Positions 33,816 through 40,447 of a stretch of 64,000 bases of DNA are shown here, piece after piece. The DNA is from Chrysomallon squamiferum (lineage: Eukaryota; Animalia; Mollusca), in assembly GCA_012295275.1 (NCBI GenBank), contig CM022673.1:15500001-15564000 (forward strand), written 5' to 3'. The notes below the pieces were generated by a model. That model was not told the origin of the DNA and ran no database searches. It worked only from the letters and a program-made list of their open reading frames with translations. Numbering within the stretch: the first letter of the stretch is position 1; each line of letters begins with the position of its first letter. A program made the position numbers and the translations under genes.

Positions 33816-36800
33816 TTAGGAAAGCGATCTCCTGCGGCGTTTTCCTGGACTATTGCCACTCTTCAGAAAATCCAAAAAGTCGGCGATTTTCGAATACTCT
33901 TCTGTCTGACAGTGGAAACCAAGATTGACATTGCATGATCTTTTCCTGTATAAATAAACAAATAAATGTGCGCATAGTCATTCTTCTATCAGTCAGGGCC
34001 TATGAGAGGGATGGTGGTCCAGCCGGTATTTTGTTCCGGGATCCAAGAGCTAAGAAGGGACCCCACAGCGACCATGCATTAATTGAATGTGTTTGTTACA
34101 TTATGTTACATCTATCATGGAAATAAAGCATTTATTAGAGTTTGGATGTAGATTTACTGGACATCAAATCCTCAATTTTCAGAAAAATTAGATGAGGTAA
34201 AAAGAACATGTGTACGAATGTGTACGTTAGTGTGCACCTGTAAGTAATAATAAATATAAATACATTTTTTTTGAATGCCCTTGTTTCTGTCTATTTATGG
34301 ACGCAACAGATTTATAGAAACTCTTGAATACAATGTGTTTTTCAACAGACAAGTTGCTCGCTTGTCGCCGTGTCGTATAAGCGATTCAGTTTTGACAAAT
34401 CGGAAGCCTTCAACATGATTTTCTCAAATAATTTATTTTATTATGTGACAAATAAAAGAAGAAGCTCTAATGAACTATGTTTAGTTGCAGAACTTACCTT
34501 TCGGACACAACATTATCATCTATTTCGTGTAATCTTTTCTTCAGGGACTGTAGAAATTCCCGTTTTGATGAAAGATCTTTAATTACCCTAAAACATTTCA
34601 GAAATGGTTAATACCATTATAAGAAATAAAATAAATAAAACATGAATAGTGTCATCTCTCTCTCTCTCTCTCTCTCTCTCTCTCTCTCTCTCTCTCTCTC
34701 TCTCTCTCTCAATTATTATTATTATTGTTGTTGTTATTATTATAAATATTATTATTACCATGAGCATCATCATCATCATCATTGCACTATGTACCTTTTA
34801 ACATGGTCGTCTACATGTGTATCACGTTTTCTTCTGTTTGTTGACGAAGTTTCATCTTCTTCCAAAAACCTCTCTAAGGTTTCCTCCGAACAGTAAGGAT
34901 CGCCAGTTAAATAAAAACAGTTCTTAGGATTTCTAGAAAATTGTTAGAAAAAAAAAATAAGTAGACTGCCAGACATACGGGCATACTTTACACTCAGAAT
35001 GACAGACAGAGAGACAGACAAAGAGACAGACAGACAGTCATAGATAGATAGAGAGATAGAGAGATAGATAGATAGATAGATAGATAATCTTATCTGATAA
35101 TTAAAATACTAATCCTTTTTCTATCGCCATGAACTAGTAACAGCCATGGTAAATTATACTAACAGAGAACCTACGGCAGTACAAGCATATTTTCTATAGA
35201 GTAAATATTTATATGTATGAAAGACGCCATGAGTAATAATATAGTCAGGCTTCATGAGTTGCCATTATTATGTTATGATGACACCATACTTTACTATTAG
35301 GAAAGTCTGAAGTTTATAAAAAGTATTTTGGCTTTAAAAACAAAATGCATCATCAGTCTGTAACCTTTCTAAGCCACCGCGTTTCCCGAACATTGTCAAG
35401 ATATCCATGCTAAAATTAATAATAAACGATGTCTAACGATGAAATTCGTTTTCGGATCAAGGATTATGGAGCATTAGTTGGAAGTATCAGCCAAAATCTT
35501 GTTCATTGAACTCCCCATTTTGAAATCACCCTTTCATATAGCCTTAAATGTTTTTTCCCAGTATGTCGCGAAAACCTGTTACAACTTGATGACCTATTTT
35601 GTTACGCGAGGTTATTGCATCAGACGTTGATATGGTGATAGAGGCTCGGTATCTACGTAAGTAATTAATTTAAAACGGAACGCCACTGTGACGTAATAGT
35701 CTTTGATTATATTTGATATATTTCGGCTGTGTAAACTTTTGTAACAATGAAATTAAGCTTTCTTTTGATCTTCGTAGAAAACATTATTTACAAATGGATA
35801 AAGATTTAATGAGATTGTTCACACTATTTAAAAACTACACATGTTGTTAAAAGGAATTGTAATACAGATAGTGAGATACAAATAGAAAAGAAGACACTCG
35901 GATATTTTGTACCAGCCGATAAACTTAAGTACAAACAGACATATAGATGGGACAGAAAAACGTTACTGAATTATTTGACTTACAGACATATACACATGCA
36001 AACAACGTAGAGAAAGACAGAGCTGATTTATAGACAGACAGATAAATAGACGAAAAGACAGAAAGATAAATAGATGAAAAGACATACAGACAAAACGATA
36101 AATAGTTTGTCAGAGAGAGAGGCGGATAGACAGATGAAAGATAGTTTGGTAAGTTAGTTACTTGACAAGCATAGGCATAATAATCTCTATTGAGATAAAC
36201 AGATAGCCACGCAGATAAAAGGAAAAATAAATAAACAAAATCATATACCGACAGAAATAGACTAACGCAGATAAACAGACAGAGATAGACACAACTATAG
36301 ACAGAGAGAAGTAAATTCTAATTCTTACATCAGTAGACTAATGTGGTTTTCTAAAGTTTCCACTGATTCTGTGAGTGTTGCAATATTCTGCCGCAGTCCA
36401 TCCAACTTATCAACCACCTCCCTGAAACGTACAATATTTATTATGGTCTGCTGTACAGTGACTACTAACATTTCTTTTTAAATGATAATTAAAAAAAAAA
36501 ATATATCATCAGTTATACAATCATCTATTACGATAATTAAAAACTGGCTTATACTAATGTTCGACATTTCATCATTGTTAAAATATTTATTATGATAATT
36601 AAAAAAGGACTTATATTTATTTTTGACATTTCTTTATTACGATAACTAAAACGGACTTTACACTGATTTCTGGCATTTTATTATTATTAAAATACTTATT
36701 ACAATAATTAAAATCGGCCTTATATTTATTTTTGACATTTCATTATTATGATAATTAAAAATTCTTTATATTGACGTCTGACATTTCATTGTAATGATTT

Positions 36801-39800: not shown

Positions 39801-40447
39801 ATATATATATATATATATATATATATACACATACACACACACACACACACACCTACACATATCCCATCAGTTATCTCGTTTGTAGAAAACAATATCTGGT
39901 TAAAGTTCTCAATCTTACAAAGTGTTATTGTAAATATGGTGATGGTACAATTCAAGGTTGTTTGGGATGAGTGGTATATAAATATTAATAATAGCAGTTT
40001 GACGTAAGAATCGTATTTCATTCATACATTTATAGCATGTTTAGTTATTGGCGGAATTATTATTATTAGTAGAAGTAGTAGTACTAGTAGTAGTAGTAGT
40101 GGTAGTAGTAGTGGTAGTAGTAGTAATATTACAGTTATTATCAACGTAATCATCATTGTCATCATAATTACTGTTACTGCAGCTACTACAACTACTACTG
40201 CTAAAACGACTACTATTATTATTACCATAATTACTCCTGCTACTGATATTATTATTATTAGTAGTAGTAGTAGTAGTATTGCTATTATTATTATTATTAT
40301 TATTATTATTATTATTATTATTATTATTATTATTATTATTATTTAAGCTTACTTTAACGGGTTCTCAGGCTGTGACTGGTCGGCCCATGTCTGTGATGTC
40401 AGAACCATAAACACTGTGAGATGCAAAAGAACACTTCTCCTTCCCAT
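33816..40447 (-). CDS. Calcitonin-type neuropeptide precursor, 181 aa; CDS complement(join(33816..33945,34498..34587,34795..34932,36329..36421,40353..40447))
   Basis: MGRRSVLLHLTVFMVLTSQTWADQSQPENPLK/EVVDKLDGLRQNIATLTESVETLENHISLLI/NPKNCFYLTGDPYCSEETLERFLEEDETSSTNRRKRDTHVDDHVKR/VIKDLSSKREFLQSLKKRLHEIDDNVVSER/KRSCNVNLGFHCQTEEYSKIADFLDFLKSGNSPGKRRRRSLS*. Signal peptide, four phase-2 GT-AG introns, 546 nt open. Contains a KR-flanked 31-aa peptide with N-terminal Cys ring and Pro-Gly-KR amidation, as in mollusc calcitonin CT1-type peptides. Confidence 0.9.
36485..36797. repeat. AT-rich minisatellite with alternating 47/62-bp units (109-bp higher-order repeat)
   Basis: Unit starts (ataa.taaaa) at 36485, 36533, 36595, 36642, 36704 and 36751; spacings 48, 62, 47, 62, 47. 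Confidence 0.8.
38327..38600 (+). mobile_element. Highly degenerate tRNA-derived SINE copy
   Basis: A-box-like head gtggttcagtgattaaag, core ttaaaagatccttcgttctg and tail tttcctctc..ttaacc..acgcc. The core resembles those at 45822-45928, 48255-48378 and 59080-59122. Confidence 0.45.

What the first reader, a model, noticed from the sequence alone, without database searches (positions are those of the whole stretch)
33816..40447. Hidden calcitonin-type neuropeptide gene built from a duplicated two-exon module
Seen: five small minus-strand exons, none in the ORF track, splice into an open 181-aa prepropeptide. After the signal exon come two repeats of [90-93 nt helical pro-region exon + 130-138 nt Cys-ring peptide exon]. 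Module 2 yields SCNVNLGFHCQTEEYSKIADFLDFLKSGNSP-amide (KR before, G-KRRRR after). Known: an N-terminal disulfide ring plus C-terminal Pro-amide defines calcitonin-family peptides, and bivalve calcitonin signalling has been linked to ion regulation and shell mineralisation. Inference: intragenic tandem duplication produced a two-peptide precursor.
Basis: partly seen in the sequence, partly recalled or inferred. Interest (0 to 1): 0.78.

Follow-up and report, generated by a model that had tools for sequence, protein, structure and literature searches.

The report
Snail calcitonin gene, first peptide degenerate
This is a real, RNA-confirmed snail copy of the known mollusc calcitonin-type neuropeptide gene, ordinary except that the first of its two peptide units has lost the amidation signal, so it likely makes one calcitonin-like hormone rather than two.

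Summary
The gene is real. Five phase-2, GT-AG exons give the 181-aa protein. RNA contigs join all four coding junctions in 2 of 3 RNA runs, all from one study, and add three untranslated exons.

It is the orthologue of mollusc CALCII / 'Calcitonin 2' (tree 100/100). The nearest named relative is the vent snail Gigantopelta aegis at 53%, so the animal is a gastropod, not a bivalve.

The 31-mer has every sequence hallmark of a calcitonin-type peptide. The two-module layout is real but ancient and already in print (PMC7200681); profile comparison suggests it predates the CALCI/CALCII gene split.

Module 1 keeps its Cys pair but lacks the Pro-Gly-Lys-Arg amidation signal: a 5-residue gap against Gigantopelta, seen in all four runs. 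So the precursor likely yields one canonical calcitonin, not two. The same loss occurs in 7 of 33 orthologues. New member of a known family with a modest lineage-specific twist.

The parts
55178..55214 (-). alternative 5' UTR exon B (3' end only; its 5' limit is not known), GT donor at 55177, 14.7-kb intron
   Evidence: loose end of the X2 contig (table 7) matches here uniquely, 0 expected by chance; donor GTAAGA at the joint. One contig in one run.
40969..41073 (-). alternative 5' UTR exon A
   Evidence: X1 contig piece contiguous with exon 1 (table 8); donor GTAAGT; in-frame stops upstream of the ATG
40353..40464 (-). coding exon 1: 17 nt UTR, ATG at 40447, predicted signal peptide (residues 1-23, 40447-40379)
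   Evidence: (hydropathy)
36329..36421 (-). coding exon 2: pro-region of module 1, predicted helix
   Evidence: RNA; 20 of 31 identical to Gigantopelta; helix 28-61 in the orthologue's model
34795..34932 (-). coding exon 3: Cys pair of module 1 (C68-C77, 34919-34890), acidic tail, RRKR (34835-34824); no Pro-Gly-basic amidation signal
34498..34587 (-). coding exon 4: pro-region of module 2, predicted helix
   Evidence: RNA; 18 of 30 identical to Gigantopelta; helix 105-145 in the orthologue's model
33794..33945 (-). coding exon 5: KR, mature peptide, G-KRRRR, stop at 33818-33816, 22 nt UTR before a donor
33846..33938 (-). predicted mature 31-residue calcitonin-type peptide (CALCIIb orthologue), Cys 33935-33909
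   Evidence: orthologues in the supplement of PMC7200681
32645..32850 (-). 3' UTR exon (its 3' end is only where the contigs stop)
   Evidence: joint 32850/33794, CT..AC, in X1 and X2 (tables 5, 8)

Best explanation
This is a spliced, transcribed gastropod orthologue of the mollusc CALCII ('Calcitonin 2') precursor that is predicted to release one amidated, disulfide-ringed 31-residue calcitonin-type peptide, while its first unit has lost the amidation signal and is likely no longer a calcitonin ligand. Shown: exon structure, splicing in RNA, orthology, and absence of Pro-Gly-basic in module 1. Inferred from established prohormone processing: the signal peptide is removed after about A23; convertases cut at RRKR 96-99, RKR 139-141 and KRRRR 174-178; carboxypeptidase and PAM trim G173 to give S142-P172-amide with a C143-C151 disulfide. 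Inferred from oyster and mussel data: the peptide acts on a calcitonin-type class B GPCR through cAMP/Ca2+, probably in ion and water balance. The helix + ring unit was duplicated inside the gene long ago, likely before the CALCI/CALCII gene duplication. In this lineage a gap of about five codons relative to Gigantopelta removed the amide signal of unit 1. What remains would be an acidic, non-amidated fragment (about D24-N95, with no internal dibasic site) that most likely serves as pro-region.
For: Splicing. Orthology: all 28 profile hits end in the same peptide; one cluster carries the source name 'Calcitonin 2' (Yesso scallop); the window groups with CALCII 100/100 and with Gigantopelta 97/98. 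Loss of amide: pairwise gap; X1, X2, X4 and DNA-like X3 cover exon 3 with no coding difference; no other PG-basic motif in the window. Age of duplication: CALCII unit 1 matches CALCI unit 1 (98.0%, score 63.5) better than CALCII unit 2 (94.7%, 38.9), and CALCII unit 2 matches CALCI unit 2 (99.8%, 129) better than CALCI unit 1 (99.0%, 85). Constraint: 21 of 31 identity with Gigantopelta in the mature peptide vs 9 of 27 in ring 1 and its tail; both X3 differences in the peptide are synonymous (only 4 coding sites in all).
Against: No peptide or receptor data exist for this species. The three RNA runs come from one study and are contigs, so tissue, level and strand are unknown. SignalP was not available; the signal peptide rests on hydropathy and alignment. 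The module profiles were cut at the Cys and PG-basic motifs, which inflates their likeness. For CALCII the helix-only comparison found nothing (1.1%, below its reversed control at 9.2%), although for CALCI it gave 87%. Both cysteines of ring 1 are kept, which pure decay does not predict. The ancestral state (amide present) rests on one close relative plus the wider family.
Confidence: 0.85

Rival explanations
1. Module 1 still gives a second bioactive peptide: a non-amidated, disulfide-looped fragment ending at N95 that acts on a calcitonin-type or other receptor, as agonist or antagonist. The gene would then remain functionally two-peptide.
For: C68 and C77 are kept and a strong RRKR site follows. 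The two ring-1 cysteines are invariant in the 44-row alignment, though rows were chosen for having two rings. Exon 2 is about as conserved as the mature peptide (20 of 31 vs 21 of 31). Seven orthologues without an amide signal also keep the Cys pair.
Against: Ring and C-terminal Pro-amide are the conserved hallmarks of the family (PMC7200681, PMC12638048, passages). Ring 1 and its tail are the least conserved part against Gigantopelta (9 of 27). No dibasic site lies between the signal peptide and R96.
Confidence: 0.1
2. The two modules arose by a recent, lineage-specific tandem exon duplication in this genome.
For: Exons 2 and 4 have similar length (93, 90 nt) and all introns are phase 2.
Against: No DNA similarity between modules. 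Each module is far closer to the same module in bivalves and other gastropods than to its partner. The layout is published for mussels and oysters, and an annelid has three peptides (PMC7200681). A Mya gene model lacks a 30-residue block at the place of exon 2, hinting at shared boundaries.
Confidence: 0.02
3. The missing amide signal is an assembly error or a rare allele.
For: The window is a single assembly in repeat-rich DNA.
Against: Three RNA runs and one DNA-like run from a second study, which differs from the window at many flanking sites, all match exon 3 without a coding gap or substitution.
Confidence: 0.02

Closest known systems
Mytilus CALCII precursor (CALCIIa + CALCIIb), PMC7200681 (passages and supplement part 3 seen); Yesso scallop 'Calcitonin 2' (peptides listed in PMC5996578, passages)
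   Same: Signal peptide, helix, ring a with no dibasic site in front, helix, dibasic site, C-x7-C peptide ending SP-G-basic; 37-38% identity overall; same clade.
   Different: Mussel and scallop ring a ends in NSPGKR and is amidated; here it ends without Pro-Gly. CALCIIa is the mussel peptide shown to activate CALCRIIc (EC50 2.6e-5 M) and raise mantle calcium uptake; its counterpart is the unit that is degenerate here.
Gigantopelta aegis LOC121381696, XP_041366975 (annotated as uncharacterized)
   Same: 53% identity over the whole length; same Cys spacing in both rings; sister in the tree (97/98).
   Different: Gigantopelta keeps MPGKR after ring a; the window lacks about five residues there.
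Pacific oyster calcitonin system (Cragi-CT1a/b, CT2; Schwartz et al. 2019, not held: seen only as cited in PMC12638048, PMC8557429, PMC8398477)
   Same: Two genes, one with two peptides and one with a single peptide; receptors Cg-CT-R and Cragi-CTR2 signal through Ca2+ and cAMP. The oyster CALCI sequence shows the same kind of decay: first Cys pair kept, PG-KR lost.
   Different: In oyster the CALCII-type gene keeps both amidated peptides and CALCI has lost one; here CALCII has lost one. Which oyster peptide is CT1b I could not confirm from a text.
Sea cucumber AjCTP1/2 (PMC12638048, section 13 and passages) and insect calcitonin A/B gene (PMC4237046, passages)
   Same: Calcitonin-type peptides encoded on separate exons of one gene.
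   Different: Those genes use alternative splicing to choose peptides; the contigs here show exon 3 included in 3 of 3 RNA runs, and contigs cannot exclude rare skipping.

Membership tests
Calcitonin-type neuropeptide precursor (mollusc CALCII) | N-terminal signal peptide | tested here: met
   Basic N-terminus, hydrophobic core at about residues 5-17, T-W-A at 21-23; aligns with orthologues' N-termini. Hydropathy only, no SignalP.
Calcitonin-type neuropeptide precursor (mollusc CALCII) | Mature peptide of 31-33 aa flanked by basic cleavage sites | tested here: met
   S142-P172, 31 aa, RKR before, G-KRRRR after
Calcitonin-type neuropeptide precursor (mollusc CALCII) | Two N-terminal cysteines | tested here: met
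   C143 and C151; invariant columns in the alignment
Calcitonin-type neuropeptide precursor (mollusc CALCII) | C-terminal Pro followed by Gly-basic (amidation), peptide b | tested here: met
   SP-G-KRRRR
Calcitonin-type neuropeptide precursor (mollusc CALCII) | Groups with CALCII rather than CALCI precursors | tested here: met
   IQ-TREE, 36 rows, 100/100 split, midpoint root
Calcitonin-type neuropeptide precursor (mollusc CALCII) | Disulfide, amide and cleavage present in vivo; activation of a calcitonin-type class B GPCR | not testable with these tools
   needs peptidomics and receptor assays
Module 1 as a calcitonin-type peptide (CALCIIa) | Two cysteines | tested here: met
   C68 and C77, same spacing as Gigantopelta
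Module 1 as a calcitonin-type peptide (CALCIIa) | C-terminal Pro-Gly-basic | tested here: not met
   absent in genome and RNA
DH31-type peptides | Absence of the N-terminal cysteine pair | tested here: not met
   Cys pair present; definition from PMC6425005 and PMC12638048 passages

The most novel reading that the evidence does not exclude
Molluscs have repeatedly turned the first calcitonin unit into something else. The Cys loop and its upstream helix are kept while the amide is dropped (this vent-snail lineage, several pulmonates, oyster CALCI). The result is a co-released, non-amidated, disulfide-looped peptide of about 72 residues that antagonises or retunes calcitonin receptors. In this snail that would switch off the very ligand (CALCIIa) tied to mantle calcium uptake in mussels, a testable link to altered mineralisation.
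Probability: 0.1. Interest if true: 0.55.

Novelty: new member of a known kind. Interest (0 to 1): 0.24.

Why it matters
As annotation it adds a verified gene model for a neuropeptide that databases leave 'uncharacterized' and Pfam does not detect. The one point a specialist may note: the counterpart of mussel CALCIIa, the only mussel peptide shown to activate a receptor and raise mantle calcium uptake (PMC7200681), has lost its amidation signal here while the close relative Gigantopelta keeps it. That gives a natural comparison for asking what peptide a does. The same loss in land and freshwater snails shows it is not unique. If the animal is the scaly-foot snail (a guess from recall of which peltospirids have genomes, not tested), the comparison would touch on unusual biomineralisation.

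Tried and rejected
Pfam: no calcitonin-family match for the window exons or for seven mollusc/annelid-type relatives; only weak coiled-coil hits below cut-off. This says the library does not cover these proteins, not that they are unrelated.

PDB sequence search with exon 5: 0 hits at E<=10. ESM Atlas with the Gigantopelta orthologue: only generic neuropeptide precursors at 0.86-0.88, below the 0.9 bar, and uninformative helical structure hits.

Hydrophobic-moment test of exons 2 and 4: not significant (p=0.07, 0.10). 'Helical' rests on the AlphaFold model of the orthologue (pLDDT about 88-94 there, pTM 0.50), not of the window protein.

Within-gene module similarity was weak, and the helix-only profile test failed for CALCII.

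No whole genome is held, so CALCI and the receptors of this species were not sought. Schwartz et al. 2019 is not held.

Literature: 'calcitonin'+'Chrysomallon' gave 0 papers. The search with 'Gigantopelta'/'scaly-foot' listed no relevant paper among 15 shown of 11,507. 'calcitonin, lophotrochozoa, exon, intron, DH31, duplication' gave 4 papers; I read passages of two (PMC12638048, PMC8557429) and neither described the mollusc gene's exon structure. Subscription papers may.

Earlier scan notes: none near this place or on these words. A hidden alternative exon with PG-KR was sought and not found. A recent duplication and an assembly artefact were rejected (see rivals).

Full report
Observation. 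The minus strand holds five small coding exons at 40447-40353, 36421-36329, 34932-34795, 34587-34498 and 33945-33816. All introns are GT-AG and phase 2, and the joined frame gives 181 aa. tblastn with the closest relative returns the five exons as its five best hits.

RNA. Four runs were found and all four laid. In X1 and X2 one contig each runs through all five exons with contiguous record coordinates and no coding differences. X4 joins exons 2, 3 and 4. These three RNA runs belong to one study and are contigs, so they show splicing, not tissue or level. X3 (kind not recorded, second study) reads through introns like DNA and differs at many sites. The contigs add a 3' UTR exon (32850-32645, joined 22 nt after the stop) and two alternative 5' UTR exons: 41073-40969 in X1, and an exon ending at 55178 in X2. 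The second is inferred from a loose end that matches there uniquely and sits on a GT donor. The gene spans at least 22.5 kb.

What it is. Exon 5 alone found 5 proteins among 23 candidates, the three named ones from clams. A profile found 28 of 2641 candidates and 95 representatives. All 28 end in the same peptide, and one cluster is named 'Calcitonin 2' in Yesso scallop. The supplement of PMC7200681 lists the same proteins as CALCII in mussel, oyster, limpet and Aplysia. A 36-row tree puts the window protein in the CALCII clade (100/100), sister to Gigantopelta aegis XP_041366975 (97/98; 53% identity). A glutathione transferase elsewhere in the window also has Gigantopelta as its best named hit (71%), and both Gigantopelta genes lie on a contig of the same length, 84,917,595. 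The animal is therefore most likely a gastropod related to Gigantopelta. Earlier scan notes on this genome also read it as a snail (unchecked notes).

The duplication. Within the window the two modules hardly resemble each other. Across orthologues they do: module 1 vs module 2 of CALCII gives 94.7% (31 of 32 rows used, one skipped) against 10% for a reversed control; in 12 CALCI-type rows it gives 99.0% against 1.4%. Each module matches the same module of the paralogue better than its own partner, which suggests the internal duplication predates the CALCI/CALCII split. Caveats: modules were cut at shared motifs, and the helix-only test failed for CALCII. The two-peptide layout is published for mussels and oysters, with three peptides in Capitella (PMC7200681, passages and supplement). 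I did not find the exon-level reading in the passages I read, but could not see Schwartz et al. 2019.

The twist. Module 1 keeps C68 and C77 but ends at RRKR without Pro-Gly. Against Gigantopelta, which keeps MPGKR, about five residues are missing at that spot. All four runs match exon 3 in coding sequence, and no other PG-basic motif exists in the window. Of 33 two-ring CALCII-type relatives, 23 keep PG-basic, 3 have another residue before G-basic, and 7 have none. Those 33 were chosen from the precursor hits after dropping isoforms, near-duplicates, fragments and one-module proteins, and they are not independent lineages. The named ones among the 7 are Lymnaea, Biomphalaria and Candidula. 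Oyster CALCI shows the same decay, and limpet CALCII has a single ring. Loss of peptide a is thus recurrent. Ring 1 with its tail is the least conserved part against Gigantopelta (9 of 27); the mature peptide (21 of 31) and the two pro-region exons (20 of 31, 18 of 30) are the most conserved. The orthologue's model makes both pro-regions long helices.

Mechanism. Shown: structure, splicing, orthology, motif loss. Inferred from general prohormone biochemistry (own knowledge): signal removal, cleavage at basic sites, amidation at G173 and disulfide formation give one 31-residue calcitonin-type peptide. Inferred from oyster and mussel work (PMC12638048, PMC8557429, PMC8398477, PMC7200681, passages): it signals through a class B GPCR by cAMP/Ca2+, probably in ion and water balance. 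The mussel mineralisation data concern CALCIIa, the unit that is degenerate here; synthesis of the two b peptides failed in that study.

Papers seen. PMC7200681: abstract, passages, supplement search and part 3 of 4. PMC12638048: passages, section 13. PMC5996578, PMC8557429, PMC4237046, PMC6425005, PMC8398477, PMC6523705, PMC13542836: passages. Schwartz 2019: nothing, citations only.

Verdict. A real and well-called gene, new member of a known family with a known architecture. The correction is that it likely encodes one canonical calcitonin, not two. Interest 0.24.

Noticed in passing
window 33794-32850 (-): An intron in the 3' UTR, 22 nt after the stop codon; by the recalled 50-nt rule this would not trigger nonsense-mediated decay.
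   Followed up: partly
window 55571-55578, 43541-43548, 16238-16245: Three TGACGTCA palindromes (the cAMP response element, name recalled); 0.5 expected, 3 of 100 shuffles reach 3. One lies about 360 bp upstream of the far 5' exon of the calcitonin gene, one inside its long first intron.
   Followed up: partly
window 27161-27973 (+): Glutathione S-transferase in one open frame with no intron in the coding part; best named hit Gigantopelta 71%.
   Followed up: partly
window 6721-8017 (+), 31224-31511 (+), 14999-15764 (-): At least six kringle-domain exons on both strands, suggesting two or more multi-kringle genes (one of the six is below Pfam's cut-off).
   Followed up: partly
window 22380-22595 (+): Exon resembling ribosomal protein S13/S15 (weak Pfam Ribosomal_S15 hit, E=0.011).
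   Followed up: no
window 2023-4072 (-) and 10238-12372 (+): Broken frames that look by eye like retroelement reverse transcriptase/endonuclease remnants; three pieces tested gave no fitting Pfam match.
   Followed up: partly
proteins P0019/P0021 (Haliotis rubra), P0052/P0063 (unnamed): Isoform pairs lacking exactly the first Cys-ring stretch, suggesting other lophotrochozoans drop peptide a by alternative splicing.
   Followed up: partly
window 34508 and 34578: Run X3 differs by two replacement changes in exon 4 (pro-region) and two synonymous changes in the mature peptide.
   Followed up: yes
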